IMG/VR virus record: IMGVR_UViG_3300009177_000029
Span: 41,064 to 105,063 of that record
Direction: 5' to 3' (one strand)
DNA length: 64,000 nt
From: a virus
Taxonomy: Duplodnaviria; Heunggongvirae; Uroviricota; Caudoviricetes
Shown one piece after another: positions 46,421 to 63,810 of the stretch. The position numbers and the translations under genes are program-made. Position 1 is the first letter of the stretch; each line of letters opens with the position of its first letter. The notes below the pieces were generated by a model, which searched no databases, was not told the origin of the DNA, and saw only the letters and a list, made by a program, of their open reading frames with translations.

Positions 46421-46819
46421 GGAACCCGACTTTGCGCCAGCCTTTGCCGCGAAACGTGCGATTGCTGCATTCATTGCTGCTACCGACTTCGCCATTTCCT
46501 GATCTGGCTTAGCTTCTGCTTCCTTGCTCTTGAACGCAATGTACGACTTGACGGTCGTCATTGGATCCTCTGGCTGCTGCTTTGGCAACTGAGGGCGTTC
46601 TGCATACTTCTCAACAAGAGAACCCTTGGTGATGTACAACGCAGGGTCTGCTGGACGAAGTGCGGAAGGACGCATTGGGGTGAGTTGCGTACCATCTTCG
46701 GCACGCTGACGTTCGATAGGCGTCAAGCTCTTCACTACAGTTGGGGCTTCAACCATAGGAAATAGTTCGTTCTGGAACTCGGGACGCAAAGGCTTTGGGC
46801 TCCACCAGGTCATGTTCAA
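46418..46819 (-). CDS. Putative internal head protein
   Basis: VVKS, MAKS sites. Confidence 0.6.
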   Translation of the reverse strand: MNMTWWSPKPLRPEFQNELFPMVEAPTVVKSLTPIERQRAEDGTQLTPMRPSALRPADPALYITKGSLVEKYAERPQLPKQQPEDPMTTVKSYIAFKSKEAEAKPDQEMAKSVAAMNAAIARFAAKAGAKSGS

Positions 46820-47022
46820 TCTTCCTTGTCTAGCAGGATTCTGCTCACTTCTTCTTGCAGGTTGTTGATGGCGAGGTCAAACACAGACTCTGCTCTACGA
46901 ATCAACTCACGTTCTGCGGGATTCTCCAACTCAATCTCGGTCTGCTGGCTCTTTGAGAGCTTGATGAGACCATGACCTACTTTGTTCAACTCCGCGGGAG
47001 TTAGGTTCGTCTTCACCTTCAT
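46816..47022 (-). CDS. Small putative head protein
   Basis: 68 aa, coupled ATGA overlaps, LSKS. Confidence 0.6.
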   Translation of the reverse strand: MKVKTNLTPAELNKVGHGLIKLSKSQQTEIELENPAERELIRRAESVFDLAINNLQEEVSRILLDKED

Positions 47023-47633
47023 GAACGAACTGCCAACCTTCCAGGGTCGCCACCGCCACCCAAGCCAGCGTTGTAGCTCATCTCAGCCTTCAAGTGGGCT
47101 GCCACTAGAAAACGTACGGCATCAATCTCGTGTGGTGCCAAGCGCATGTGAACTGACGCCATAGAATCTACCAATCCAGCGTCTACGAACATGTAAACAC
47201 CTGGGAAGAAGACAGACAACACCATCTTGTCTAGGTCGTTCAATGCATCCGTAGAATCACATGCACGATGCACAGCGTCCACTACGACATGCTTTGCAGC
47301 TTGCATATCTAGAGAGGAGTCTATGTTGCGACGGAACAACACGTTGCCTAGGTTACGATCACGTGGTGCACGGAACTGAGGGTGCATGTCCTCTACAGGC
47401 GCAGATTCGGTCTGGTTGTAGTCAGTGCCCGCGCCTGCGTGACCACCGGAAAGAGCTTCACTCTTGGCCAACTGGTCAAGGTCAAAGCTGCCTTCGTTTG
47501 GCTGCACAGTGGCAACACTCTTGACGATCAAGGCAAGAGGACGAACAGCGACTTCCTCAGTCTGAGACTTGAGAAGTGCTTCGTTGGACTCTAGGAAACG
47601 TACTGGTACACGTGGAAAGTGTGACATGTTCAA
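47019..47633 (-). CDS. Putative internal head protein
   Basis: LLKS, IVKS, LAKS sites. Confidence 0.6.
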   Translation of the reverse strand: MNMSHFPRVPVRFLESNEALLKSQTEEVAVRPLALIVKSVATVQPNEGSFDLDQLAKSEALSGGHAGAGTDYNQTESAPVEDMHPQFRAPRDRNLGNVLFRRNIDSSLDMQAAKHVVVDAVHRACDSTDALNDLDKMVLSVFFPGVYMFVDAGLVDSMASVHMRLAPHEIDAVRFLVAAHLKAEMSYNAGLGGGGDPGRLAVRS

Positions 47634-54542: not shown

Positions 54543-54785
54543 TTACCTTCTACGTTTCGGCGATGTCGTACGTCCAACAGTCAGAAGATTGCTCGCACGG
54601 ATCCGTCCATTTCGAAGCGCATTCTTACGCGCTTCGACCTCTGCCCTATGTTGAGCTTCCCAAGCCTGTCTCGATTCTGGACAGTCACATACAGGCATCA
54701 TGCCAACAGGCATGTCTCCGGTGAAGTCGATCGTAGGCTTGATGTCCTTCTCACAATAGGGACACTTGAATACGGGTGAAATCAT
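54543..54785 (-). CDS. Small zinc-binding hypothetical protein
   Basis: CPYC...CDC. Confidence 0.6.
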   Translation of the reverse strand: MISPVFKCPYCEKDIKPTIDFTGDMPVGMMPVCDCPESRQAWEAQHRAEVEARKNALRNGRIRASNLLTVGRTTSPKRRR

Positions 54786-55075
54786 TTGCGGTACGCAGTA
54801 TCCGGCTGATTCAAACGAGGCTTGTAATAGGTTGGCGTGACCAGTCTGATAGCCGTGCCTTGAATGACGCCGTTGGGAAACCTTAGCTCCAAGCGGTAGT
54901 CCTTACCTATCTCCATCCGGTCGCTAATCGATCTGATCGGCTCATTGTTGAGGAACACAAAACCAGCGCGAACATAGTTTCTACTCTCCCTCGGAGAGTT
55001 TGTCAAACCTGAGAGGTCGAGAACACGCCAAACCTCGGCATGGGTTGCTATACGACTAGGCCAGACCACATTCAT
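54782..55075 (-). CDS. Stand-alone S4 RNA-binding domain protein
   Basis: VWRVLDLSGLTNSPRESRNYVRAGFVFLNNEPI matches the S4 (TyrRS C-terminal-like) pattern. Confidence 0.7.
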   Translation of the reverse strand: MNVVWPSRIATHAEVWRVLDLSGLTNSPRESRNYVRAGFVFLNNEPIRSISDRMEIGKDYRLELRFPNGVIQGTAIRLVTPTYYKPRLNQPDTAYRK

Positions 55076-55092: not shown

Positions 55093-55130
55093 AAAAGCAA
55101 AAGGCCCGTAGCCATTGGAGCTACGAGCCT
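55093..55130 (-). terminator. Intrinsic terminator ending tRNA operon
   Basis: GGCTCGTAGC/GCTACGGGCC stem followed by TTTTGCTTTT. Confidence 0.75.
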
Positions 55131-55142
55131 TCGTGTTGGTAG

Positions 55143-55215
55143 ATTCGGGCGCGAGGAATCGAACCTCGATTGGTGGGGTCAAAGTCCACTGTCCTGCCTT
55201 TAGACGAAACCCGAA
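55143..55215 (-). tRNA. tRNA-Gln(TTG)
   Basis: Cloverleaf; loop CT-TTG-AC. Confidence 0.88.
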
Positions 55216-55288
55216 GCTGGTAGGGAGAATCGAACTCCCTCTATTCCTCGTTACGAATGAGGTGCCGCACCATTTCGGCATTACCAGC
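55216..55288 (-). tRNA. tRNA-Thr(CGT)
   Basis: Cloverleaf; loop TT-CGT-AA. Confidence 0.85.
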
Positions 55289-55337
55289 ATGTGGGTTGGT
55301 GTTACCCAACCCGAGCGATTATGTTAGCACACTGCGG

Positions 55338-56918
55338 TCAGAGTGCAACCTGATTGATCTTGTCCGTCCAGAAAGTTGCCGATCCGGTGTTGGACGAGAA
55401 CTCGTTGATTACTTCGAACACGTTGTCCGAGAAACCACCAACATTCAACGTATCCTTGCGGGTCGTTGCCTGCGTCGTGTTCTCGACCTGAATGTCGATG
55501 CAAACCAACTTTGCCTTCGGGTTTCGTGTCTTGAACACATCCCACTCAGACTGTAGGTTTCCGCCGTAGCGTGCTCCCCAGGTGTAGTTGTGTGCCCAGG
55601 ACTCGTTATCCGAGACCATGATGATGAGATCACCTGCCGCCTTCTCACGGTTCAACAATGCAACCGGAGCTGCACAGTTCGTTCCGCCACCAGGCGCCTT
55701 CATGATCTTCTGCGCGTTGGTCATGATGGAGTCGAACGGATTCAACTTCTCACGCCATGCGTCCGTGTGGAACAAGATGACCTCTGCGTCAGGGTTCTTG
55801 CGAAGAACCGATGCTGCCACGAGGGCTGCAACATCCTTGCAAGTCGTCTTCGACGTTGCACCCGCACGGTGACCCGTAACAGGTGAACCCATCGAACCCG
55901 ACACGTCAATCATCACGTAGACCTTGCCTTCGTACTTTGGAACGTTCGCCGTAGCGTGCTCCATTGCCTCTTGCAAAGCGTTCGTGATCTTCGCAGGCAC
56001 CGCAGGGTCTGCGTTCAAGTACGCGGTAAGAAGCTGATAAGGGAAAGCGCGAGCCTTCAAGACCTCATCCTTCGAACCGAGACGATGTGCGATGGTGTTG
56101 ACCATCTTCTGGTTCTTGAGAACGCCGTGACGCTCAAACGTGTTGAGGTTCATGCGCGTCATCATCCAGCCCGCCTTCTCTGCGATGGACGACCACTGCT
56201 TCTCAGTGAGAGGCAAGGACGTCAACATGCGGAAATCAACGTCTGGAACTTCCAGAGAAGTGTTCTTCTTGAAGTTCTCGTACTGCTGGATCACACCAGG
56301 AAGAGCTGCGGACTGTGCATCCGTCAACTTCTTGCCGATGAGGTACGCGTACATAGCCTCACGAGACGCACCTTCTGGCGATGGGTGGACCATCTTGATC
56401 ACGTCACCCAACGAAGGCTTGTCGCCTACGGAGTCACGGAACAAAGAACCGTCCTTACGACCGTTCAACCATGCCTGAATCGCCTTCTTCGGCGCAGAGC
56501 CAAGTGACTTACGTCCAACTGCACCGGAGCGCATGATCTGGACGAAGTTACGAAGCATCTTGCCATTGTCGATGACGCGAGGGAACGTCTTCTTGAAGAG
56601 GTCAGCATCACGCGTCGAAAGAACTGCAAGAAGGAATGCAGGCATGTCCTTCATGAAACCCTTGTCACGAGCGTAGATTGCCGTCTTCGCCAAGAACTCA
56701 GGGGAAACCTTCTGCGCGAGCGCAAGAGTTTCCTTCATCTGACGTTCTGCCGTCGAATAGAACGTGTCGTTGAACGTACCAGTGCATGCATACTGAGCTA
56801 GCGCAGCCTCATCAGCCATTGCGTAAGCCGTACCGCCTGCCTTGTTTACCGCGTCTGGCTTACGAGAAGCCTTGCGAACTGCGGATACACCACCACGAAA
56901 TAGATTTGCGTTTGCCAT
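55338..56918 (-). CDS. rsr: Ro60/Rsr TROVE-domain RNA-binding protein
   Basis: AGGTAY..EAALAQYACTGTFNDTFY, MKDMPAFLLA, WMMTRMNLNTFERHG, ARAFPYQL, vWA MIDVSGSM and SDNESW. Confidence 0.95.
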   Translation of the reverse strand: MANANLFRGGVSAVRKASRKPDAVNKAGGTAYAMADEAALAQYACTGTFNDTFYSTAERQMKETLALAQKVSPEFLAKTAIYARDKGFMKDMPAFLLAVLSTRDADLFKKTFPRVIDNGKMLRNFVQIMRSGAVGRKSLGSAPKKAIQAWLNGRKDGSLFRDSVGDKPSLGDVIKMVHPSPEGASREAMYAYLIGKKLTDAQSAALPGVIQQYENFKKNTSLEVPDVDFRMLTSLPLTEKQWSSIAEKAGWMMTRMNLNTFERHGVLKNQKMVNTIAHRLGSKDEVLKARAFPYQLLTAYLNADPAVPAKITNALQEAMEHATANVPKYEGKVYVMIDVSGSMGSPVTGHRAGATSKTTCKDVAALVAASVLRKNPDAEVILFHTDAWREKLNPFDSIMTNAQKIMKAPGGGTNCAAPVALLNREKAAGDLIIMVSDNESWAHNYTWGARYGGNLQSEWDVFKTRNPKAKLVCIDIQVENTTQATTRKDTLNVGGFSDNVFEVINEFSSNTGSATFWTDKINQVAL

Positions 56919-56986
56919 AGAAACATTCTCCTTTCATCCCGTTGGAGACAACCCAGCACTATGCTGGTATAGCTATTCAGTTTTAA

Positions 56987-57057
56987 GCTGCGTTCCGGAA
57001 TCGAACCGGATTCTCCGCGTTACAAGGGCGGCGCGTCACCATTTACGCTTATGCAGC
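56987..57057 (-). tRNA. tRNA-Thr(TGT)
   Basis: Cloverleaf; loop CT-TGT-AA. Confidence 0.85.
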
Positions 57058-57059
57058 AT

Positions 57060-57128
57060 GTTTCCAACTTTCCCGCCGACTTAGTACGACAGCAAGCATC
57101 TCTGACTGCGCGGGTGGAGTTGGCAAAC
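57060..57128 (-). ncRNA. Unclassified bulged long-stem RNA
   Basis: GTTT(G)CCAACT-CCA-CCCGC pairs with GCGGG-AA-AGTTGG-AAAC. Confidence 0.45.
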
Positions 57129-57157
57129 GTCCACAATCAGATAACCTGCTGTGTGAA

Positions 57158-57228
57158 GGTGCAAGTGGGAATCGGACCCACCTGTAACAGTTTTGCAGAC
57201 TGCATCGATCCCAGATCGATATTGCACC
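57158..57228 (-). tRNA. tRNA-Cys(GCA)
   Basis: Cloverleaf; loop CT-GCA-AA. Confidence 0.85.
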
Positions 57229-57230
57229 AG

Positions 57231-57316
57231 ATCCCGAGGGTGGACTTAAACCACCGACCTTTAGGCCAAATGTGTGCACAACAGCCTAACGCTCTATTTC
57301 TCTGAGCTACTCGGAA
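57231..57316 (-). tRNA. tRNA-Asn-like with 19-nt anticodon loop
   Basis: Acceptor, D and T arms intact; TTAGG/CCTAA stem encloses CTGTTGTGCACACATTTGG. Confidence 0.6.
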
Positions 57317-57317
57317 A

Positions 57318-57387
57318 GCGGCTAGCGGGAGTCGAACCCGCGCGTCAAGGTTGGAAGCCTCGCATGCTACCGTAACATCTCAACCGC
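57318..57387 (-). tRNA. tRNA-Gly(TCC)
   Basis: Cloverleaf; loop CT-TCC-AA. Confidence 0.88.
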
Positions 57388-57392
57388 GTAGT

Positions 57393-57462
57393 GCGGGTAC
57401 AGGGAATCGAACCCTGTCCGAATGGCTGGCAACCACTCATACTACCATTATACTTTACCCGC
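57393..57462 (-). tRNA. tRNA-Gly(GCC)
   Basis: Cloverleaf; loop TT-GCC-AG. Confidence 0.88.
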
Positions 57463-57504
57463 ATTGATTTCCCGGTGGGTTTCCTCAGGAATGAGGACCG
57501 GGAA

Positions 57505-57576
57505 TGATCCATCGGAGAATCGAACTCCGGTTCGCAGATTGAAAGCCTGCCGTCCTAACCACTAGACGAATGGACC
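57505..57576 (-). tRNA. tRNA-Glu(TTC)
   Basis: Cloverleaf; loop CT-TTC-AA. Confidence 0.9.
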
Positions 57577-57582
57577 GTTTGA

Positions 57583-57654
57583 TGACCCTACGGGGATTTG
57601 AACCCCGATTCTCAACGTGAGAGGCTGGCGTCCTAGCCATTAGACGATAGGGCC
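57583..57654 (-). tRNA. tRNA-Glu(CTC)
   Basis: Cloverleaf; loop CT-CTC-AC. Confidence 0.85.
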
Positions 57655-57668
57655 GTCTTGATTTCACC

Positions 57669-57697
57669 AGTATGACCTCAGGTGCGGAGGTTGTCAA
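57669..57697 (-). promoter_or_regulatory. Sigma70-type promoter
   Basis: TTGACA-N17-CATACT, 15 nt upstream of tRNA-Glu. Confidence 0.65.
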
Positions 57698-57701
57698 GGA
57701 A

Positions 57702-57927
57702 CTTCTCTATAGCCGCGGTTTTGTCCAAAATCGACTGACAGGGCCGATTTCTGTTTGTACATTCCTCTAGTGGCATCAACCCGGGCGTCAACATCCTGCT
57801 TTCCGACTCTGCCCTGTTTGACTTGCTCCCTCCATGGTACGGACGGCTTTTGGCCTCCCATGTCTAGCAGTGGAGCCGCGAACTTCCTCACATCCCAACA
57901 AGTGGGTTAGTGCGTACAACCGAGAAG
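57702..57927 (-). ncRNA. rnpB: Minimal RNase P RNA (catalytic domain, vestigial S domain, no P18)
   Basis: GAGGAAGTTCGCGG pairs with ACAAAACCGCGGC (P4 with bulged U); P1, P2, P3, P5, P6 pseudoknot, P7, P15-17 with L15 GGU, P19; GAGCAAG and CTAGAGGAATG conserved runs. Confidence 0.85.
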
Positions 57928-57933
57928 AAACCA

Positions 57934-58021
57934 CGGAGAGCAGAGGAATCGCACCCCATACGCTTTTACACGTACCCTCTGTTTAGCAAACAGTGCCGAC
58001 TACTAAGTCGAGTTACTCTCC
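57934..58021 (-). tRNA. tRNA-Ser(GCT)
   Basis: Long variable arm; loop TT-GCT-AA. Confidence 0.82.
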
Positions 58022-58028
58022 AAGAACT

Positions 58029-58616
58029 TCACACTGTAGCAGACTTGGAAGCCTGTGCAAGTTCGATCTTGCGAAGTTCCTTTTGCAGCTTTCCTTGGAT
58101 TTGCTTGGCAAATCGCTTCGTCGTACGGGACACCTTGTCCAAGCGCTTGAGAGCAAGACGCTTCTGTAGGTTACCCATGCGATCGATGAAAAGCTTTCCT
58201 TGAAGATGGTCCAACTCGTGTTGGAATGCCACAGACGTGATTCCAGAGAGCCAACGCTCGGTCACCAGGCCGCCTTCGTCTTGGTAGGTGACACGGACCG
58301 ACTCAGCGCGCTTGAGGCGTTCCAGGACGCCAGGGAAGCTGAGACAGCCCTCATTGGAGTCCACCTGGTCCGTGTGGACTGCCAGAATCTGCGGATTGAT
58401 GCACGTGATGTATTCCTGAGATTTGAAGTCACGAATCACAAACATCGAGTACAATGCACCAATCTGGTTGGCAGCGAGACCCTCAGCGCGAAATGCCTTC
58501 GCCGTATCTCTCAAGTCTGCTGACAACTGCGCGATACCCTCGTCAAAGATTTCAACCGGGTCAGTCTGCTGCTTGAGAATAGGATTCGGATAGTGAAGGA
58601 TTTCTTTGATTGCCAT
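58029..58616 (-). CDS. def: Peptide deformylase
   Basis: GLAANQIG, EGCLS, HELDHL motifs. Confidence 0.95.
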   Translation of the reverse strand: MAIKEILHYPNPILKQQTDPVEIFDEGIAQLSADLRDTAKAFRAEGLAANQIGALYSMFVIRDFKSQEYITCINPQILAVHTDQVDSNEGCLSFPGVLERLKRAESVRVTYQDEGGLVTERWLSGITSVAFQHELDHLQGKLFIDRMGNLQKRLALKRLDKVSRTTKRFAKQIQGKLQKELRKIELAQASKSATV

Positions 58617-58628
58617 GTTGTCTCCTCA

Positions 58629-58712
58629 CGGAAAGCAGTGGAATCGAACCACCACGGGCGAACCGTGCACCTGTTTTCGAGGCAGGGCTGCTCCCAGAGC
58701 AGGTTACTTTCC
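58629..58712 (-). tRNA. tRNA-Ser(CGA)
   Basis: Long variable arm; loop CT-CGA-AA. Confidence 0.85.
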
Positions 58713-58716
58713 AATA

Positions 58717-58801
58717 CGGAGAGCAGTGTACTCGAAACACCTACCCTTGCGGGTATCCGACGCTTTCCAGGCGTGGGTGGCACCTAGCCACTCTACTCTC
58801 C
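58717..58801 (-). tRNA. tRNA-Ser(GGA)
   Basis: Long variable arm; loop CT-GGA-AA. Confidence 0.85.
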
Positions 58802-58900
58802 AAATGGTGACTCACCTTCCGGTGGCCTAGCGCGTCACCAACGCTTGAACTGGACTTTGCAGGATTTGATCACGCCGGCATGTGGCTTTGCCTATCCATT

Positions 58901-58982
58901 CGGAAGAAATAGGAGTCGAACCCGACCTGTTACGGCACCCTGTTTTCAAGACAGGTATGGCACCACTGCCATCTTTTCTTCC
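58901..58982 (-). tRNA. tRNA-Ser(TGA)
   Basis: Long variable arm; loop CT-TGA-AA. Confidence 0.85.
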
Positions 58983-58990
58983 AGGATGTA

Positions 58991-59224
58991 TTATGTAGCA
59001 GACTTCCTTTCGGCACGCAATCGCTTTGTTAGCTTGTAGCGGACAATAGTGCGTGCCAAATGGTCAATCTCAGCCTCAGTCAACTCATGGGAAACATGAG
59101 CGTATTCGCCAAGCATGATCATCTTGATCATGTTCCAGAAAGAGAACCGAGTATACACCTCGATAGATGGAGACTCAGGTTCCTTCCTGTCAATGTAGTG
59201 GTGGTGAAAGCTACTCGTTGTCAT
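58991..59224 (-). CDS. Small hypothetical protein
   Basis: Start trimmed to MTTSSFHHHY, overlapping HNH stop. Confidence 0.5.
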   Translation of the reverse strand: MTTSSFHHHYIDRKEPESPSIEVYTRFSFWNMIKMIMLGEYAHVSHELTEAEIDHLARTIVRYKLTKRLRAERKSAT

Positions 59225-59762
59225 TTTCCAACTCCTGGTTCCAGTAGAGGTAGTCCCTCCAACAGTCAGGAGTGTTTGGAAGGGCAATGATGAGCTTCTG
59301 ACGTGGAGTCCAGTCAGGCTTTACCGGCTTCGAACGCAACACCATCCTTGCCTCAGCCGGAGTTCTGTCTGCCTTCTTACCGTTACACCTGATACAGCAT
59401 GTAGCGATGTTGTCCCAGACAGTCTTTCCGCCCTTGGAACGAGGAATCACGTGGTCATAGGTGAGGTTCTGTGTACCTGGCTTGTCACCACAGTATTGAC
59501 ACGTGTACTTGTCACGTGCAAATACGTTGATGCGTGAGAACTTCACACGATGCTTCTTGCCGTTGACGTACTCAAACAAGCGCACGACAGCGGGACACTT
59601 CATGGTGAGTGACATTGAAGTTAGCTCGAAGTCTTCATATTCCTTCAAGACCTCAACCTTGTCTTCGAACCAGAGGATGACTGCACGCTGCCACGAGATC
59701 ACGCGAAGTGGCTCGTAAGTAGAGTTCAACAGCAAAGTTCTGCGCTCTATGATGCTAGTCAT
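59211..59762 (-). CDS. HNH endonuclease
   Basis: TLLLNSTYEPL, PAVVRL, FSRINVFARDKYTCQYCG, TYDHVIPRSKGG, CCIRCNGKK; start MTSIIERR. Confidence 0.92.
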   Translation of the reverse strand: MTSIIERRTLLLNSTYEPLRVISWQRAVILWFEDKVEVLKEYEDFELTSMSLTMKCPAVVRLFEYVNGKKHRVKFSRINVFARDKYTCQYCGDKPGTQNLTYDHVIPRSKGGKTVWDNIATCCIRCNGKKADRTPAEARMVLRSKPVKPDWTPRQKLIIALPNTPDCWRDYLYWNQELENDNE

Positions 59763-59776
59763 TGGTTCCTCCTCAA

Positions 59777-59860
59777 TGGACCTGGTGGGAGTTGAACCCA
59801 CACGGTATCGCTACCACAACGTTTTAAGTGTCGTCTGTCTGCCTATTCCATCACAAGTCC
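59777..59860 (-). tRNA. tRNA-Leu(TAA)
   Basis: Long variable arm; loop CT-TAA-AA. Confidence 0.85.
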
Positions 59861-59863
59861 TCA

Positions 59864-59952
59864 TGGTGCGTACAGGAATCGAACCCATCTTCCGGTGTTT
59901 ATCAGACGTATCGGTTATAAACCGACCTGTGGCAACCAGCCACCTACGCACC
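59864..59952 (-). tRNA. tRNA-Ile(TAT) with long variable region
   Basis: GTCGG-TT-TAT-AA-CCGAT followed by ~21-nt variable region. Confidence 0.72.
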
Positions 59953-60144
59953 TCAATGTCTATTCAGACCACGCCACACCCAATATGCGATGTGATCCAA
60001 CACTTTTGGGTCAAGTTCGTAATCTTTGCAGTAGTTTAGCACTTCTTCGTCTTCTATCCACTCAAGCATAGACTTCCCGCCGTAGTGTGCCATGTACGCC
60101 CACTCAACTAACTTAGCCCTAGCCCTTGCTTGAGAAGTTTCCAC
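59953..60144 (-). CDS. Small hypothetical protein
   Basis: 63-aa ORF overlapping Pth2-like stop. Confidence 0.45.
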   Translation of the reverse strand: METSQARARAKLVEWAYMAHYGGKSMLEWIEDEEVLNYCKDYELDPKVLDHIAYWVWRGLNRH

Positions 60145-60554
60145 ACTGCCCCTACTCGGTGCTGCCCCGAGCTTCGCGGGTTTAGAAGCCGCTGGCCCTG
60201 CTGATGGCCCATAGAGGCTCGAAGTTCTTTCATCGCTAGCGGCAGATGACGTACCGCTTCCATTGCTTGATCTGTAGCCTCTATTGCGAGGGCTGTCAAG
60301 CTCATACCCATATCCGGCTCGCGGAACAGGGAATGTGCAATGCCGAGAGAGAACAGCTTTCCACTCAGTTCGTTGAGTTCTTTCTCGTCTGCAACAGACA
60401 GGAAACCCAACGTGTTGGATTCAGCATGCCACTCTCGGGCTTGATCTGGATTTTCGAACTTGAACTCAACCAAAGCATGCATGCCTTGCACTGCCTGCGC
60501 ACCCGGAGACAAATCTCGACGAGTTACGACATACAGCTTTTGATTAGTCCGCAT
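60108..60554 (-). CDS. Peptidyl-tRNA hydrolase 2-like protein
   Basis: KLYVVTRRDLSPGAQAVQGMHA...FREPDMG..LTALA. Confidence 0.75.
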   Translation of the reverse strand: MRTNQKLYVVTRRDLSPGAQAVQGMHALVEFKFENPDQAREWHAESNTLGFLSVADEKELNELSGKLFSLGIAHSLFREPDMGMSLTALAIEATDQAMEAVRHLPLAMKELRASMGHQQGQRLLNPRSSGQHRVGAVWKLLKQGLGLS

Positions 60555-60596
60555 GGTAGAAACCTACGCGCCACCAGTTTTTGTCTTTTCCATACA

Positions 60597-60679
60597 TGCC
60601 CACGGCGAGAGTCGAACTCGCACGCCTGTCAAGGCAACGGTTTTTGAGACCGTCATGTCTGCCATTCCATCACACGGGC
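60597..60679 (-). tRNA. tRNA-Leu(CAA)
   Basis: Loop CT-CAA-AA; long variable arm. Confidence 0.9.
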
Positions 60680-60722
60680 GTCACCTGGTAACCAGGTTAT
60701 CTTAGTCGCTTCGAACTAGGAG

Positions 60723-60794
60723 TGCCAATAGGAGGACTCGAACCTCACGAGCAGAGCCTTATGAGAGCCCGCTAAGCAACCTGCTTGTATTGAC
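60723..60794 (-). tRNA. tRNA-Met/Ile2(CAT), atypical D arm
   Basis: Loop CT-CAT-AA; normal T arm. Confidence 0.65.
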
Positions 60795-60796
60795 AT

Positions 60797-60870
60797 TGGG
60801 AGCGGCCCCGGAAGTCGCGTCCGGTTGTGAGAGCTTATGAGACTCCCCTGTCATCTCCAACTGCACCGCT
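60797..60870 (-). tRNA. tRNA-Met(CAT), atypical T loop
   Basis: Loop CT-CAT-AA; T loop CGCGACT; encoded CCA. Confidence 0.65.
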
Positions 60871-60871
60871 A

Positions 60872-60951
60872 TGGGCACGGGGAGAGTCGAACTCCCACGC
60901 TATTCGCGCCAGATTCTTAGTCTGGTGTGTCTGCCATTCCACCACGCGCCC
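60872..60951 (-). tRNA. tRNA-Leu(AAG)
   Basis: CCAGA-CT-AAG-AA-TCTGG; Leu-type D loop and variable arm. Confidence 0.85.
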
Positions 60952-60955
60952 GTTA

Positions 60956-61037
60956 TGCCGAAGAAAGGAGTCGAACCTTCATGTACGAAGTACGGCGGCT
61001 TCTAAGACCGCTGTGTCTGCCATTCCACCACTCCGGC
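60956..61037 (-). tRNA. tRNA-Leu(TAG)
   Basis: Loop CT-TAG-AA; long variable arm. Confidence 0.9.
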
Positions 61038-61043
61038 ATTGTA

Positions 61044-61117
61044 TGCACCACCAGGGTATCGCGCCCTGCATTTGACGGTGTGTAAAACCGTTCTCGTCGC
61101 TTGCTGAGTCGTAGTGC
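61044..61117 (-). tRNA. tRNA-Val(TAC), atypical T loop
   Basis: ACGGT-TT-TAC-AC-ACCGT; T loop CGCGATA. Confidence 0.75.
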
Positions 61118-61141
61118 GTTGAGAATAGGATCTTTGATTAG

Positions 61142-61214
61142 CCTCTTCGGTGAGATTTGAACTCACACCACCCGCCTTAGGAGTGCGGTACACTATCCGT
61201 TATGCTACGAAGAG
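61142..61214 (-). tRNA. tRNA-Arg(CCT)
   Basis: Loop CT-CCT-AA. Confidence 0.88.
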
Positions 61215-61218
61215 ATTA

Positions 61219-61291
61219 CGCTCCTACTAGGATTCGAACCCAGATCGCAGCGCTTAGAAGGCGCGCACACTATCCATTGTGCTATAGAAGC
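61219..61291 (-). tRNA. tRNA-Arg(TCT)
   Basis: Loop CT-TCT-AA. Confidence 0.88.
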
Positions 61292-61296
61292 AGTCA

Positions 61297-61368
61297 CGTA
61301 CCCGGCAGGAATCGAACCCGCATTCGGACGTTCGTAGCGTCAGAGTCTATCCGTTGACGTACAGGTAC
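61297..61368 (-). tRNA. tRNA-Arg(ACG)
   Basis: Loop CT-ACG-AA. Confidence 0.88.
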
Positions 61369-61374
61369 ATTGGT

Positions 61375-61436
61375 GGTGACGAAAGTGATCGTGAAGGTTT
61401 GATCTTGAAATGATGTATTCACGGTCGGCATTCACC
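61375..61436 (-). ncRNA. Handle-family RNA copy A (candidate Y-like RNA)
   Basis: GGTGA-ATGCC-GACCGTGAA-TACATC...TTCACGATC-ACTTTCG-TCACC, followed by ACCA. Confidence 0.7.
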
Positions 61437-61438
61437 GA

Positions 61439-61510
61439 AGCTGGTACAGGAACTTGCATCCTGATCACATCCATACCAAGGAAGTGTGTCTCTATTTACA
61501 CCTTACCAGC
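61439..61510 (-). tRNA. tRNA-Thr(GGT)
   Basis: Loop TT-GGT-AT; T loop TGCAAGT. Confidence 0.82.
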
Positions 61511-61513
61511 GAT

Positions 61514-61596
61514 TGGTCAGTCGGACGGGATTTCCACCCGTAAACTCTATGTTCTAGGCATAGTGTCTTTGCCATTGCCAGTCTCGCGACCGACTA
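61514..61596 (-). tRNA. Atypical tRNA-like gene (TAG loop, C33, enlarged D region)
   Basis: Acceptor TAGTCGG/CCGACTG + A + CCA; CTATG-CCTAGAA-CATAG; T loop TGGAAAT. Confidence 0.5.
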
Positions 61597-61614
61597 ACTT
61601 AGACTACCGGCTGA

Positions 61615-61685
61615 TGGACCGCTAGGGAGTCGAACCCTATCTTTCACGGTGCAAGCGTAACGTATTCCCGTCCTACTCGCGGCCC
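61615..61685 (-). tRNA. tRNA-Ala(TGC)
   Basis: Loop CT-TGC-AC; G3-U70. Confidence 0.88.
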
Positions 61686-61691
61686 ATTGTT

Positions 61692-61719
61692 ATGGTAACA
61701 CACCGTAGTGCGTTGTCAA
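61692..61719 (-). promoter_or_regulatory. Sigma70-type promoter
   Basis: TTGACA-N16(TGn)-TACCAT. Confidence 0.6.
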
Positions 61720-61720
61720 G

Positions 61721-61792
61721 CACGCTAGGAAGGATTCGAACCCTCTTGACGCCGGTTTTGGAGGCCAGCCGCTCTCCCAGGAGCACTAACGT
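61721..61792 (-). tRNA. tRNA-Trp(CCA)
   Basis: Loop CT-CCA-AA. Confidence 0.85.
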
Positions 61793-61793
61793 A

Positions 61794-61894
61794 TGGTCTT
61801 GAGTTTCTACTCCCTCAGAGCCTCCCACCCTCCCTCCTCCGTGTTTTCACACGGGATCAAGTCGGGCAGTCCGAGTATCCCATAGAACCTCAAG
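61794..61894 (-). ncRNA. Unclassified 101-nt RNA with terminal stem, 3' ACCA and G-tracts
   Basis: CTTGAG-G-TTCTA pairs with TAGAA-A-CTCAAG, then ACCA; CCGTGT-GAAA-ACACGG hairpin; GGGAGGGTGGG-N9-GGG. Confidence 0.5.
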
Positions 61895-61957
61895 TTTGAA
61901 GATGATCATGAGCATCTTCGACTCGCATCTGCACGGGTTGGTTACCGTGTACAAGAT

Positions 61958-62061
61958 TGGTGGAGCGTGCCGGATTCTAACCAGCTCTCTACCTTGCCCA
62001 TTGAAGGGCCAGGTTGGGACTTCGCCATACTTAGTATGTGCTTACATTACACCAACGCCCC
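61958..62061 (-). tRNA. tRNA-Ala-like RNA with ~23-nt insertion and expanded anticodon arm
   Basis: GGGGCGT/ACGCTCC-A-CCA (G3-U70); D arm GTGT/GCAC; T arm GCTGG-TTAGAAT-CCGGC. Confidence 0.6.
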
Positions 62062-62073
62062 GAAAACATGTGA

Positions 62074-62148
62074 GGGTGACTAGGGGGAATCGAACCCACC
62101 ACCGCCGGATTCACAGACCGGCATGCGGACCTCTACACTATAGTCACC
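62074..62148 (-). tRNA. tRNA-His(GTG)
   Basis: Loop CT-GTG-AA; 8-bp acceptor. Confidence 0.88.
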
Positions 62149-62154
62149 ATGAAG

Positions 62155-62227
62155 CGCGCCCAAGGAGGATCGAACTCCCCTGGCCTTGATTGACAATCAA
62201 GTGTACTCACCAGAATACTATGAGCGC
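62155..62227 (-). tRNA. tRNA-Asp(GTC)
   Basis: CTTGA-TT-GTC-AA-TCAAG. Confidence 0.88.
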
Positions 62228-62271
62228 ATTGTCCAGAGGCTCTCCGCAGGTTTCCCTGCGTGAGTCTGGTA

Positions 62272-62343
62272 TGGAGCTAGAAAGAGTCGAACTTTCGTAA
62301 CATCGTTATCAGCGATGTGTACTAACCGTTATACGATAGCTCC
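62272..62343 (-). tRNA. tRNA-Ile(GAT)
   Basis: CATCG-CT-GAT-AA-CGATG. Confidence 0.9.
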
Positions 62344-62356
62344 GTTAGAAATCTGA

Positions 62357-62429
62357 TGCCGCCGACTGGACTCGAACCAGCATTTGTGTCCGGTTAAAAG
62401 CCGGGTGCCAACCTTTAGGCGACGACGAC
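62357..62429 (-). tRNA. tRNA-Lys(TTT)
   Basis: Loop CT-TTT-AA. Confidence 0.85.
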
Positions 62430-62434
62430 AGAAA

Positions 62435-62506
62435 TCGGAGTAGGGTGAATCGAACACCCGACATCACCGCCCCAAACGGTGCGACATACCACTTGCCTAT
62501 ACTCCG
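62435..62506 (-). tRNA. tRNA-Pro(TGG)
   Basis: CACCG-TT-TGG-GG-CGGTG. Confidence 0.9.
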
Positions 62507-62507
62507 A

Positions 62508-62582
62508 TGGCAGATTCCCGTGGTCATACTCCACGATCTTTCCCCGTTGTCAGGGATGCTCTGAAACTTGAGCTAGGAACCT
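62508..62582 (-). tRNA. Degenerate tRNA-Val(GAC)-like gene
   Basis: Acceptor, D and T stems pair; anticodon arm misregistered; T loop AGTATGA; encoded CCA. Confidence 0.5.
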
Positions 62583-62588
62583 ATTAGT

Positions 62589-62719
62589 TAGTGACGAGAG
62601 TGACCGAGTTGTTTAGCCTAGCACTGGCAGCCCCGTTTGTTTAGAACTGATGGAGCTTACGGGAGTTGCACCCGCGTCGGATCATATTCAGTGATGTAAA
62701 CCCAATCGAGCATTCACTA
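62589..62719 (-). ncRNA. Handle-family RNA copy B with circularly permuted alanyl-tRNA/tmRNA-like domain (YrlA-like architecture)
   Basis: TAGTGA-ATGCTC-GATTGGGTT-TACATC...GAC-GCGGG-TGCAACT-CCCGT-AAGCTCC-[17-nt loop]-GGGGCTG-D-like hairpin...AACTCGGTC-ACTCTCG-TCACTA. Confidence 0.75.
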
Positions 62720-62802
62720 TGGTTGAGGAAGGAATCGAACCTACTGTTCCCGAAGGAGGCGGTTTTACAGACCGCTGCGCCGACCATTGACGCGTCTCAA
62801 CC
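62720..62802 (-). tRNA. tRNA-Tyr(GTA)
   Basis: GCGGT-CT-GTA-AA-ACCGC; long variable arm. Confidence 0.9.
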
Positions 62803-62807
62803 AGATA

Positions 62808-62895
62808 TCAGGGCGACAGGACTCGAACCTGCACGGCGATCTTGTGTTACTCGTCTCCAAAACGAGAGGGCTACCATCTACCCACCTACACCCTG
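62808..62895 (-). tRNA. tRNA-Pro(TGG) with expanded variable region
   Basis: CTCGT-TT-TGG-AG-ACGAG followed by ~17-nt variable region. Confidence 0.68.
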
Positions 62896-62898
62896 GTA

Positions 62899-62974
62899 TG
62901 CAGCTTCTTGGAGTCGAACCAAGTTCTACGGCTTTTCAGACCGTCGCGTATGTAACCCTACTCGCTCAAGCTGC
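62899..62974 (-). tRNA. tRNA-Phe(GAA)
   Basis: Loop CT-GAA-AA. Confidence 0.85.
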
Positions 62975-62981
62975 GTTTGTA

Positions 62982-63054
62982 CGATGGATGTAGGACTTGC
63001 ACCTACCTCGGGTAAGTTAACAGCTTACTGCTCAACTTCCTGAGCTAATCCACC
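62982..63054 (-). tRNA. tRNA-Asn(GTT)
   Basis: GTAAG-CT-GTT-AA-CTTAC. Confidence 0.85.
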
Positions 63055-63062
63055 ATAGATAG

Positions 63063-63137
63063 CTGGGGCAGAGGGAATCGAACCCCCGCACATACGGTTA
63101 ACAGCCGTACTGTCTTTCCAACGCGACATACACCCCA
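63063..63137 (-). tRNA. tRNA-Asn(GTT)
   Basis: TACGG-CT-GTT-AA-CCGTA. Confidence 0.85.
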
Positions 63138-63202
63138 ATGAGGTACGCCGAAGCGTACCGAAATCAATGACCCTATTCAGTTTTCAAATGGTCTTTCGAC
63201 CT

Positions 63203-63275
63203 ACTCCGACGCAAGGAATCGAACCTCGATTAACGGTTTCAGAGACCGCTGTCCTGCCTTTAGACGAAATCGGAA
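63203..63275 (-). tRNA. tRNA-Gln(CTG)
   Basis: Loop CT-CTG-AA. Confidence 0.88.
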
Positions 63276-63278
63276 TGT

Positions 63279-63360
63279 ATGTGACGAAAAATGTAGAGAG
63301 GTAGTGCGGGCTTGCGGCCCGCGTATCTAAACGCGATGTACTCCCCACGAGCATTCACAT
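63279..63360 (-). ncRNA. Handle-family RNA copy C (candidate Y-like RNA)
   Basis: ATGTGA-ATGCTC-GTGGGGAG-TACATC-[two hairpins]-CTCTCTAC-ATTTTTCG-TCACAT. Confidence 0.7.
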
Positions 63361-63406
63361 TGGTATCTCATTGTTTAGCGTTGTCGTGAGAATCGCGACA
63401 CTTTTA

Positions 63407-63479
63407 TGGAAGCGGAGGGAGTCGAACCCATCTATGTTTCGGTTAAGAGCCGAGTGCCTGGCCGGTTAGCTTCGCTTCC
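63407..63479 (-). tRNA. tRNA-Lys(CTT)
   Basis: Loop CT-CTT-AA. Confidence 0.88.
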
Positions 63480-63490
63480 GTTGAGTCTCT

Positions 63491-63519
63491 ATCGTGCTGT
63501 GCGTTCTGTCTGTTGTCAA
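63491..63519 (-). promoter_or_regulatory. Sigma70-type promoter
   Basis: TTGACA-N17-CACGAT, just upstream of tRNA-Lys. Confidence 0.45.
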
Positions 63520-63520
63520 G

Positions 63521-63684
63521 TCACTTTCTGCGTTGGGTCTCTCGAACGATTAAGGGCACCGAAGTTTCCTTGGTGCCCTTGTGAATCGATAGAGAATGCG
63601 TCTAGTTATCGATTACACGTCGGCACCTACCCAAATCTGGGCATAGTCGAACTTCGGGTGAATGCGATTAACTAGAGTGAGCAT
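63521..63684 (-). ncRNA. Unclassified ~165-nt twin-hairpin RNA
   Basis: CTAGTT/AACTAG-closed long stem and AAGGGCACC/GGTGCCCTT GAAA hairpin, between two promoters, no ORF. Confidence 0.45.
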
Positions 63685-63690
63685 CTCTTT

Positions 63691-63718
63691 ATCCTAGCAG
63701 GGCTTCGAACGATGTCAA
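63691..63718 (-). promoter_or_regulatory. Sigma70-type promoter
   Basis: TTGACA-N16(TGn)-TAGGAT. Confidence 0.65.
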
Positions 63719-63782
63719 CCGGAAAGTGAAGGTGCTAGCAGTTTTGCGGCTACTAGCACCCGGTATGAGCATCACAGCGCAC

Positions 63783-63810
63783 ATCCTATCACTTCCGAGC
63801 GGGCTGTCAA
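63783..63810 (-). promoter_or_regulatory. Sigma70-type promoter
   Basis: TTGACA-N16(TGn)-TAGGAT. Confidence 0.65.

What the first reader, a model, noticed from the sequence alone, without database searches (positions are those of the whole stretch)
55143..63810. A self-contained phage RNA-maturation and translation-rescue island
Seen: 42 tRNA or tRNA-like genes for all 20 amino acids, most lacking encoded CCA and often only 0-10 nt apart. They are co-oriented with an RNase P RNA, Ro60, three handle RNAs, peptide deformylase, a Pth2-like protein, an HNH nuclease and an S4 protein, with at least five internal TTGACA promoters. Inference: a system that makes, processes and quality-controls its own tRNA pool, for example against host anticodon nucleases. 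I cannot tell from sequence alone whether this combination has been described.
Basis: partly seen in the sequence, partly recalled or inferred. Interest (0 to 1): 0.75.

Follow-up and report, generated by a model that had tools for sequence, protein, structure and literature searches.

The report
Phage tRNA array with mini RNase P
A 169-kb soil phage related to Myxococcus phage Mx1 carries a one-strand block of 34 well-supported tRNA genes (about 39 with weaker calls) that also holds a stripped-down RNase P ribozyme gene, a Ro60 protein gene and two translation-upkeep enzymes; the parts are real, but they are a loose collection, not one conserved machine.

Summary
Most of the listed parts are present, all on the minus strand, between promoter-like sites near 63810/63718 and a strong terminator at 55132-55100.

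- **tRNAs:** 32 genes by ARAGORN at default settings, 34 with Rfam, about 39 with relaxed calls. None encodes CCA, and about 20 junctions are 11 nt or shorter. Only 18 amino acids are covered confidently; Met and Val rest on sub-threshold elements.
- **Proteins:** Ro60, peptide deformylase, a Pth2-like protein and an HNH nuclease are confirmed. The "S4 protein" lies outside the stated coordinates and is unproven.
- **RNase P RNA (57927-57702):** Rfam misses it, but I judge it a real RNase P RNA relative. It keeps the whole catalytic domain and has lost the specificity domain. Profiles built from other viral RNase P RNAs hit only this spot in the genome (E about 1e-7).
- **Handle RNAs:** the three are real paralogues. 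One has a YrlA-like layout.

"Self-contained" and "co-conserved" are not supported. The CCA-adding enzyme lies 92 kb away, there is no RnpA, Mx1 has a tmRNA instead of RNase P RNA, and its deformylase is elsewhere.

This scan has already reported phage RNase P RNAs on other DNA. I found no paper on them.

The parts
63691..63810 (-). Two promoter-like sites (TTGACA-16 nt-TAGGAT, each with TG before the -10) upstream of the first tRNA
   Evidence: sequence match only, function not shown
62719..63479 (-). tRNA block: Lys(CUU), Gln(CUG), Asn x2, Phe, an 88-nt Pro(UGG)-like gene and Tyr, with handle RNA C between Lys and Gln
63281..63358 (-). Handle RNA C: covarying outer and inner stems around a conserved internal loop
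   Evidence: (MFE z = -2.6)
62591..62717 (-). Handle RNA B: the same handle enclosing a permuted tRNA-like domain (T arm, closed acceptor stem with G3-U70, D-like hairpin), the layout described for YrlA
   Evidence: tmRNA_permuted, 18 bits; layout compared with PMC4201824
62074..62582 (-). tRNA block: an ambiguous tRNA-like gene (ACA or possibly GAC anticodon), Pro, Lys(UUU), Ile(GAU), Asp, His
61794..62061 (-). Non-tRNA structured spacer: a 104-nt tRNA-shaped RNA with a G3-U70 acceptor stem, an encoded ACCA end and an inserted GGCGAAG (62061-61958), then a stable ~100-nt hairpin RNA ending ACCA
   Evidence: z = -2.3 and -3.5; no Rfam family; in strain X2 a joint skips 61869-62154, so most of this stretch (and the adjacent tRNA-His gene) is missing or replaced there
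61141..61792 (-). tRNA block: Trp, Ala, Thr(GGU), handle RNA A (61435-61376), Arg x3, with a promoter-like site at 61719-61692
60597..61038 (-). tRNA block: Leu(UAG), Leu(AAG), two weak CAU-anticodon tRNA-like genes, Leu(CAA)
60108..60554 (-). Pth2-like peptidyl-tRNA hydrolase (148 aa)
   Evidence: Pfam PTH2, 33.3 bits against a cut-off of 23; PDB 2zv3, E 8.7e-5; phrog_1866
59777..59952 (-). An 89-nt long-variable-arm tRNA with anticodon UAU, and tRNA-Leu(UAA)
   Evidence: the UAU element is replaced by 70 other bases in strain X4
59211..59801 (-). HNH endonuclease, probably a homing gene; the adjacency tRNA-Leu(UAA)-HNH is shared with Mx1
58629..58982 (-). tRNA-Ser(UGA, weak), Ser(GGA), Ser(CGA)
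58029..58616 (-). Peptide deformylase (195 aa) with the GLAANQ, EGCLS and HELDH motifs
   Evidence: Pfam, E 8.7e-41; motifs read in the translation
57934..58022 (-). tRNA-Ser(GCU), class II
   Evidence: Rfam tRNA-Sec model, 46.8 bits; fold and anticodon loop UUGCUAA
57702..57927 (-). Miniature RNase P RNA (226 nt). It has P1, P2, P3, P4 with a bulged U, P5, the P6 pseudoknot, P15-P17, L15 GGGUU and P19. It has no P18, and the specificity domain is reduced to a ~30-nt hairpin. It starts 6 nt after tRNA-Ser and ends 47 nt before tRNA-Glu
   Evidence: not found by Rfam
56986..57654 (-). tRNA block: Glu x2, Gly x2, an 87-nt tRNA-like gene with an over-long anticodon arm (57316-57230), Cys, Thr(UGU)
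55338..56918 (-). Ro60/Rsr orthologue (526 aa; TROVE ring plus vWA domain with a DVSGS MIDAS motif)
55142..55288 (-). tRNA-Thr(CGU) and tRNA-Gln(UUG), the last genes of the array
55100..55132 (-). Terminator-like hairpin (14 pairs followed by a U-rich tail) closing the array
54782..55075 (-).
   Evidence: no Pfam hit; Atlas lead of 0.82 to S4 clusters; AF2 pLDDT 59

Best explanation
This is the tRNA-gene array of an Mx1-like phage that probably infects myxobacteria. It appears to act as a collecting point for independently acquired genes that support phage translation.

Shown:
- Thirty-four well-supported tRNA genes (about 39 with weaker calls), none encoding CCA, lie head to tail on one strand between promoter-like sites and a terminator.
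- Among them sit a Ro60 gene, a peptide deformylase gene, a Pth2-like gene, an HNH gene, several tRNA-like non-tRNA RNAs, and a 226-nt RNase P RNA that keeps the full catalytic domain but lacks the specificity domain.

Inferred:
- The array is transcribed into long precursors.
- The phage ribozyme, probably together with the host RnpA protein, cuts at tRNA 5' ends. With spacers of 0-11 nt this cut also sets the neighbouring 3' trailers.
- Host exonucleases trim the trailers, and the phage CCA-adding enzyme, encoded 92 kb away, completes the tRNAs.
- The near-complete tRNA set lets a 52% GC phage translate in a roughly 69% GC host and late in infection.
- The deformylase and the Pth2-like enzyme keep nascent-chain processing and tRNA recycling going.
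- Ro60, with Y-like RNAs, handles or shields structured RNA, as shown for Thermus phage phiLo.

The parts work side by side, not as one conserved machine.
For: Array anatomy:
- Gene calls, spacing and absence of CCA.
- Promoter-like and terminator-like boundaries.

Proteins:
- Family assignments.

RNase P RNA:
- The CR-I-like GAGGAAGUUCGCGGCUCC and the CR-V-like ACAAAACCGCGGCUAU form a 7/7-paired P4 with the bulged U. Relative to the common AGUCCGGG/CCCGGCU form, four pair positions are changed on both sides.
- All catalytic-domain helices are present.
- P1, P2, P6, P15 and P16 differ from those of its closest relatives yet stay fully paired.
- Across 12 viral RNAs, 92.5% of cells pair against 75.6% in shuffles, and the covariation score is 0.421 against 0.138, with 0 of 500 shuffles reaching it.
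- HMMs built without the candidate hit only 57919-57709 in the 169-kb genome, at E 1.6e-7 and 2.8e-7.
- One member of that HMM's seed, L149, matches Rfam RF00010 by Infernal at E 2.2e-14. L247 scores 141 bits.
- Six further viral RNAs inside tRNA arrays pass Rfam's cut-off.
- The element is present in contigs from three other metagenome studies.

Loose assembly rather than a unit:
-.

Background:
- Mx1 is 55.5% GC against 68.8% for its host (PMC10720576).
- Phage Ro60 binds phage Y-like RNAs and the host PNPase (PMC12135203).
- Phage CCA-less tRNAs accompanied by a phage CCA-adding enzyme and ribozymes have a precedent (PMC10879173).
Against: - Rfam's RNase P model does not score the candidate even at E <= 10.
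- Sequence profiles made only from bacterial or Rfam-validated viral RNase P RNAs miss it. The link therefore runs through intermediate viral forms.
- The specificity domain that reads the tRNA elbow is gone, so activity may be weak or absent.
- Nested folding of the element is no more stable than shuffles (z = -0.17). This is expected for a pseudoknotted RNA but gives no support.
- A 65-codon ORF with no relatives overlaps the element.
- The nearest named relative, Mx1, lacks the element.
- There are no RNA data.
- The host is inferred only from 48% Ro60 identity to Mx1 and similar genome size.
- An earlier report of a similar viral RNase P in this scan is marked 'part of it fell'; which part is unknown to me.
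Confidence: 0.6

Rival explanations
1. One reading: an integrated, self-sufficient system that makes, matures and quality-controls a private tRNA pool specifically to outlast host tRNA-cleaving defence nucleases.
For: - The decoding set is near complete.
- The phage has its own RNase P RNA and its own CCA-adding enzyme.
- Ro60 and Pth2-like genes recur within 10 kb of each other in four of five distinct related loci.
- A GNAT-RHH pair lies just upstream.
- Reviews propose phage tRNAs as a counter to tRNA cleavage (text quoted).
Against: - There is no RNA ligase of the RtcB type and no RnpA.
- The CCA enzyme is 92 kb away.
- The deformylase is unlinked in Mx1.
- RNase P RNA is absent from all Ro60 relatives examined.
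- Cassettes come and go between strains.
- No anticodon-loop escape changes were examined.
- The low GC of the phage relative to the likely host explains a tRNA set without invoking defence.
Confidence: 0.2
2. The RNase P-like element is a decaying or repurposed relic: a processing spacer, a decoy for the host RnpA, or a structured punctuation element. It is not an active ribozyme, and the host RNase P does all the 5' processing.
For: - The specificity domain is lost and P18 is absent.
- Rfam does not recognise it.
- No phage RnpA is found.
- Mx1 does without it.
Against: - Every catalytic-core helix and the key conserved nucleotides are intact: the AGGAA of J3/4, the bulged U, GGAGCAAG, the L15 GGU, the AGAGGAAUG block and the ACAAAAC block.
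- Compensatory changes relative to relatives keep the helices paired. Decay would break them.
- Graded reduction of the same domain recurs in several viral lineages.
- From my own knowledge: catalytic-domain-only and Pyrobaculum type T RNase P RNAs are active.
Confidence: 0.2

Closest known systems
Bacterial type A RNase P RNA (E. coli M1 RNA / rnpB; Rfam RF00010)
   Same: It has the same catalytic-domain architecture and conserved blocks: P1-P6, P15-P17, P4 with a bulged U, and an L15 GGU that could bind a tRNA 3' end. Relatives in other viral contigs pass the Rfam cut-off.
   Different: It is 226 nt rather than about 350-400 nt. The specificity domain (P7-P14) is reduced to one short hairpin and P18 is absent. 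It is encoded by a phage inside a tRNA array, with no RnpA gene in the genome. Rfam does not detect it. In size and missing domain it resembles the Pyrobaculum type T form (from my own knowledge), but its sequence is of bacterial type.
Phage and bacterial Ro60 (Rsr) with YrlA/Y-like RNAs (Chen et al. 2014, PMC4201824; Thermus phage phiLo, PMC12135203)
   Same: It is a TROVE + vWA protein encoded on the same strand as tRNA-like small RNAs. Handle RNA B has the YrlA order: T arm, closed acceptor stem, D arm, carried on a terminal stem.
   Different: The Rfam YrlA model finds nothing significant (23 bits against a cut-off of 69, on tandem tRNAs). The candidate RNAs lie 0.3-6.5 kb upstream. The conserved handle sequence is not the published GNCGAA(N)G motif. 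Binding is untested.
Translation and RNA-repair gene sets in the tRNA arrays of large phages (Iyer et al. 2021, PMC7824862; Al-Shayeb et al. 2020, PMC7162821)
   Same: Many tRNAs sit together with a deformylase, a CCA-adding enzyme, a Pth2 and a TROVE protein in a large phage.
   Different: Those descriptions do not mention RNase P (0 occurrences). This genome lacks RNA ligases of the RtcB type and lacks a tmRNA.
Theta (HDV-like) ribozymes beside phage tRNA genes (Kienbeck et al. 2024, PMC10879173)
   Same: It is a phage-encoded ribozyme placed among CCA-less phage tRNAs, in a genome that also carries a CCA-adding enzyme. This implies partial independence from host tRNA processing.
   Different: Theta ribozymes are small, cis-acting and proposed to cut the 3' trailer. 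This element is a trans-acting RNase P-type enzyme for 5' ends.
Myxococcus phage Mx1 tRNA region (OR576727.2)
   Same: Genome sizes are similar (169.6 against 169.1 kb). Ro60 is 48% identical. Pth2-like and HNH genes lie within the array, and the tRNA-Leu(UAA)-HNH adjacency is shared.
   Different: Mx1 has a tmRNA (118 bits, unannotated), no RNase P RNA, its deformylase about 80 kb away, and a different gene order.

Membership tests
RNase P RNA, bacterial type A (RF00010) | Helix P4 formed by the CR-I and CR-V blocks, with the conserved bulged U | tested here: met
   GU[U]CGCGG pairs with CCGCGGC at 7/7. Four of the seven pairs change on both sides across 12 viral RNAs, and all cells pair. For the other loci, five of the seven pairs were a selection criterion.
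RNase P RNA, bacterial type A (RF00010) | The rest of the catalytic domain: P1, P2, P3, P5, the P6 pseudoknot, P15-P17, and an L15 loop with GGU | tested here: met
   All were located in the correct order and are fully paired. Changes in P1, P2, P6, P15 and P16 relative to L246/L149 are compensatory.
RNase P RNA, bacterial type A (RF00010) | Specificity domain (P7-P14) that binds the tRNA T/D-loop region | tested here: not met
   Only about 42 nt lie between the P5 strands: a 5-bp P7-like helix plus a small hairpin. Relatives show graded reduction of the same domain.
RNase P RNA, bacterial type A (RF00010) | A score at or above the curated covariance-model threshold | tested here: not met
   No match at the gathering score or at E <= 10. 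Homology is shown only through intermediates: E 1.6e-7 to a profile of L149/L246/L159, and L149 matches RF00010 at E 2.2e-14.
RNase P RNA, bacterial type A (RF00010) | Site-specific cleavage of pre-tRNA 5' leaders | not testable with these tools
   This needs an in vitro assay or a complementation test.
Ro60/Rsr with Y RNA | TROVE ring plus a vWA domain with a MIDAS motif | tested here: met
   Pfam vWA_Ro60 at E 7.9e-18 and TROVE at E 9.3e-8; DVSGS read in the translation; phrog_850.
Ro60/Rsr with Y RNA | A Y RNA (YrlA type) encoded nearby on the same strand | tested here: inconclusive
   Rfam YrlA scores 23.4 bits against a cut-off of 69, on tandem tRNAs. Handle RNA B has the YrlA layout. The GNCGAA(N)G motif is not specific here: 12 hits against 4.6 expected, many of them inside genes.
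Peptide deformylase | The Pfam domain plus the three catalytic motifs | tested here: met
   E 8.7e-41; GLAANQ, EGCLS and HELDH in the translation.
Pth2 peptidyl-tRNA hydrolase | The PTH2 domain above the curated cut-off | tested here: met
   33.3 bits against a cut-off of 23; PDB 2zv3 at E 8.7e-5. Catalytic residues were not examined.
S4 RNA-binding domain protein | A recognisable S4 domain | tested here: not met
   No Pfam hit at E <= 0.01 for 54782-55075. Only a 0.82 language-model lead. The single-sequence fold has pLDDT 59.

The most novel reading that the evidence does not exclude
The 226-nt RNA is an active RNase P ribozyme that lacks the specificity domain. The phage brings it to mature its own tightly packed, CCA-less tRNA precursors, and possibly to cut its tRNA-like Y RNAs as happens to M. 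smegmatis YrlA. Together with the phage CCA-adding enzyme, this would make the tRNA supply largely independent of the host. It would be one of the smallest natural bacterial-type RNase P RNAs and part of an unreported, widespread viral ribozyme family.
Probability: 0.5. Interest if true: 0.85.

Novelty: new variant of a known kind. Interest (0 to 1): 0.62.

Why it matters
- RNase P is regarded as a universal cellular enzyme. A virus-encoded version, naturally trimmed to the catalytic domain, would extend the list of translation parts that phages carry.
- It would give RNA biochemists natural minimal RNase P designs to test.
- It would raise the question of why some phages do not rely on the host enzyme.
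- The region is also a compact place to test what phage Ro60 and its tRNA-like RNAs do.
- The negative result matters too. The attractive 'self-contained island' is a fluid collection of cassettes, so function should be assigned part by part.

Tried and rejected
RNase P searches that found nothing:
- Rfam at the gathering score, at E <= 1 and at E <= 10 gave no RNase P match for the candidate.
- nhmmer with a 58-sequence bacterial RNase P profile, and with a profile of six Rfam-validated viral RNAs, did not find it. Only profiles that include the reduced viral subgroup did.
- Nested MFE folding of the candidate is no better than shuffles. This is uninformative because P4 and P6 are pseudoknots.
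- blastn of a viral RNase P RNA against 50,697 deposited phage records found only a mislabelled Salmonella record.
- BLAST of the spacer against the relatives' genomes matched only the tRNA-Ser part.

Expression:
- No RNA holder was listed among public runs, so expression is untested. Only DNA contigs could be laid on the region.

Handle RNAs and other spacer RNAs:
- MAFFT misaligned the three handle RNAs, so I built no covariance model.
- A handle motif search in the Ro60 relatives found nothing convincing.
- Rfam on the relatives found no YrlA.
- The GNCGAA(N)G motif proved non-specific.
- I considered a hidden two-piece tmRNA, because of ARAGORN's relaxed 'tmRNAp' call and an 18-bit tmRNA_permuted hit. 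I rejected it for lack of a plausible tag and a sub-threshold score.
- I considered hammerhead or other small ribozymes for the handles. No Rfam hit supports this.

S4 candidate:
- Pfam, the Atlas and a single-sequence fold all failed to establish it.

Promoters:
- The TTGACA count across the whole window is at chance (55 against 51.7).

Full report
**Origin of the window.** The window is bases 41064-105063 of a 169,063-bp viral record with direct terminal repeats, rated complete. No deposited phage matches it at the DNA level. Its Ro60 protein is 48% identical to that of Myxococcus phage Mx1, a 169,621-bp phage. GC content is about 52% throughout the window. Mx1 is 55.5% GC against 68.8% for its host (PMC10720576). 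Near-identical and related DNA occurs in rhizosphere and soil metagenomes. I therefore treat it as an Mx1-like soil phage. The host is inferred, not shown.

**Checking the tRNA array.** Every feature of the finding lies on the minus strand.
- ARAGORN at default settings finds 32 tRNA genes between 55142 and 63479. It finds only one other in the whole genome, a tRNA-Met far away.
- Rfam adds 57231-57316 and 61439-61510.
- 57934-58022 scores 46.8 bits on the tRNA-Sec model and folds as a class II tRNA-Ser(GCU).
- With a relaxed threshold ARAGORN reports 38.
- Eighteen amino acids are covered by confident genes. Met depends on two weak CAU elements. Val depends on one ambiguous element that ARAGORN reads as ACA.
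- None of the genes is followed by CCA, and about 20 junctions are 11 nt or shorter, many exactly 3 nt.

**Boundaries of the array.** Promoter-like sites with TTGACA, a 16-nt spacer and an extended -10 lie at 63810 and 63718. More lie at 61719 and 57697. A 14-bp terminator hairpin follows the last tRNA at 55132-55100. Neither TTGACA nor promoter-like sites are clearly enriched over shuffles.

**Proteins.**
- Ro60 (TROVE plus vWA, with a DVSGS metal site), peptide deformylase (all three catalytic motifs), an HNH nuclease and a Pth2-like hydrolase are confirmed.
- The only S4-like candidate is a 97-codon ORF at 54782-55075. It lies downstream of the terminator and outside the stated coordinates. 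It has no Pfam hit, a weak Atlas lead and a poor fold.

**RNase P RNA: first look.** Rfam finds nothing there, even at E <= 10. Nested folding is unremarkable. The sequence nevertheless carries, in the right order, close copies of the conserved RNase P blocks:
- GAGGAAGUUCGCGGCUCC
- GGAGCAAGUCAAACAGGG
- CCCGGGUUGA
- CUAGAGGAAUG
- ACAAAACCGCGGCUAU

The first and last blocks pair to make helix P4 with its bulged U. Both strands differ from the E. coli form in a compensating way.

**RNase P RNA: structure.** I could place P1, P2, P3, P4, P5, the P6 pseudoknot, P15, P16, P17, an L15 loop with GGU, and a P19 hairpin. P18 is absent. Only about 42 nt stand where the specificity domain should be.

**RNase P RNA: relatives in other viral contigs.**
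- A pattern scan of viral contigs returned many RNase P RNAs embedded in tRNA arrays.
- Six of them pass Rfam's threshold at 156-280 bits. Another, L247, scores 141 bits.
- A subgroup (L149, L182, L159, L246) shares the candidate's exact P4 and shows graded shrinkage of the specificity domain.

**RNase P RNA: statistical link.**
- HMMs built without the candidate hit only 57919-57709 in the 169-kb genome (E 1.6e-7 and 2.8e-7). They hit nothing in the Ro60 relatives.
- The chain to the curated family closes through L149, which matches RF00010 by Infernal at E 2.2e-14.
- On a 12-sequence alignment, 92.5% of cells in P4, P5, P15 and P16 pair, against 75.6% in shuffles and 32-55% when partners are slid. 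Nine pairs change on both sides.
- P1, P2 and P6 also differ from L246/L149 yet stay fully paired.
- The caveats: five P4 pairs were a selection criterion for the other loci. Profiles made from bacterial or Rfam-validated RNAs alone miss the candidate.

**RNase P RNA: conclusion.** I conclude that it is a genuine, structurally maintained relative of RNase P RNA that lacks the specificity domain. Whether it is catalytically active is not known.

**RNase P RNA: context and novelty.**
- The genome has no RnpA, so a host protein would be needed.
- I found no paper describing a virus-encoded RNase P RNA.
- Earlier notes of this scan report the same kind of gene in at least seven other phage genomes. 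Within this project it is therefore a repeat discovery.

**Handle RNAs and other tRNA-like RNAs.**
- Three elements share a conserved 5' GUGAAUGC(U)CG...UACAUC and a 3' UUUCGUCAC. Each fits flush between two tRNA genes.
- They have an outer stem and an inner stem whose sequences differ between copies but stay paired, and variable inner domains.
- Copy B encloses a T arm, a closed G3-U70 acceptor-like stem and a D-like hairpin. This is the order described for YrlA.
- M. smegmatis YrlA is cut by RNase P and receives CCA (PMC4201824), so copy B is a plausible Y RNA. This is inference only.
- Rfam's YrlA model gives nothing significant, and the published motif is not specific here.
- Further odd RNAs are a 104-nt tRNA-shaped RNA with an encoded ACCA, a stable ~100-nt hairpin RNA, an 87-nt tRNA-like gene with an over-long anticodon arm 300 nt upstream of Ro60, and an 89-nt long-arm tRNA with anticodon UAU.

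**Is it one system?** The evidence says no.
- The CCA-adding enzyme that these tRNAs need is 92 kb away. There is no RtcB.
- Of five distinct loci with a related Ro60, three place it in a tRNA array. Four have a Pth2-like gene within 10 kb, two have the HNH gene, and one has a deformylase nearby.
- Mx1 keeps its deformylase about 80 kb from the array. It has an unannotated tmRNA in the array and no RNase P RNA.
- Twelve viral RNase P loci show no Ro60, deformylase or Pth2 in their flanks, although these flanks are short.
- Contigs from sister strains replace or lack individual spacers, odd tRNAs and most of the structured spacer at 61794-62061 (a joint skips 61869-62154), while keeping the RNase P RNA.
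- The HNH gene sits beside tRNA-Leu(UAA) in both this phage and Mx1. It is best read as a homing element.

**Most likely mechanism and rivals.** I favour a fluid tRNA array that supplies a near-complete decoding set to a low-GC phage in a high-GC host. It has picked up separately useful helpers: a ribozyme for 5' processing of tightly packed precursors, a deformylase, a peptidyl-tRNA hydrolase, and Ro60 with Y-like RNAs, which in Thermus phage phiLo bind and dampen the host PNPase (PMC12135203). Phage-encoded ribozymes and CCA-adding enzymes accompanying CCA-less phage tRNAs have a precedent in theta ribozymes (PMC10879173). The rivals are a dedicated anti-nuclease system and an inactive RNase P relic. 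Neither is excluded, and both are less well supported.

Noticed in passing
L001:1732-2109 (Myxococcus phage Mx1, record 46646-47023): Rfam finds a full tmRNA (117.7 bits) inside the Mx1 tRNA array. The deposited annotation has only small hypothetical ORFs and a 'Hef-like endonuclease' ORF there. ARAGORN also finds 31 tRNAs in this stretch, against the 22 annotated for the genome.
   Followed up: partly
window 59864-59952 (-): An 89-nt tRNA with a long variable arm (a class II body, as in Leu/Ser/Tyr tRNAs) has a UAU anticodon with U33 and A37. This is an unusual pairing of body and anticodon. In strain X4 it is replaced by 70 other bases.
   Followed up: partly
window 57230-57316 (-): An 87-nt tRNA-like gene (Rfam tRNA, 46.5 bits) has a 7-8 bp extended anticodon stem and a ~14-nt loop. 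It lies 300 nt upstream of Ro60 and overlaps the only weak YrlA hit. It may be a tRNA-shaped Y RNA.
   Followed up: no
window 61794-62061 (-): A 104-nt tRNA-shaped RNA has alanine-identity G3-U70 and an encoded ACCA, the only encoded CCA in the array. A very stable ~100-nt hairpin RNA, also ending ACCA, lies just downstream of it. In the related strain X2 a joint skips 61869-62154, so most of this stretch is missing or replaced there.
   Followed up: partly
genome 3873-4238 (+), outside the window (L249): A 416-codon ORF carries a PolyA_pol/CCA-adding domain (E 2.6e-41). This fits a phage whose tRNA genes all lack CCA.
   Followed up: partly
just beyond the window end (window coordinates 64196-64811, minus strand): A GNAT-like ORF (139 aa) followed by a small ORF lies immediately upstream of the array. 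A Pth2-type hydrolase could in principle undo acetylation of aminoacyl-tRNA; this is speculation.
   Followed up: no
L004:15333-15905: A family of ~60-nt repeated elements lies 4 kb downstream of the Ro60 gene in a related viral contig that has no tRNA array. They may be that phage's Y-like RNAs.
   Followed up: no
L148, L214, L204, L138, L247 (viral contigs): Rfam-grade RNase P RNAs are wedged directly between tRNA genes in large phage contigs of up to 463 kb. Their specificity domains range from full length to strongly reduced.
   Followed up: partly
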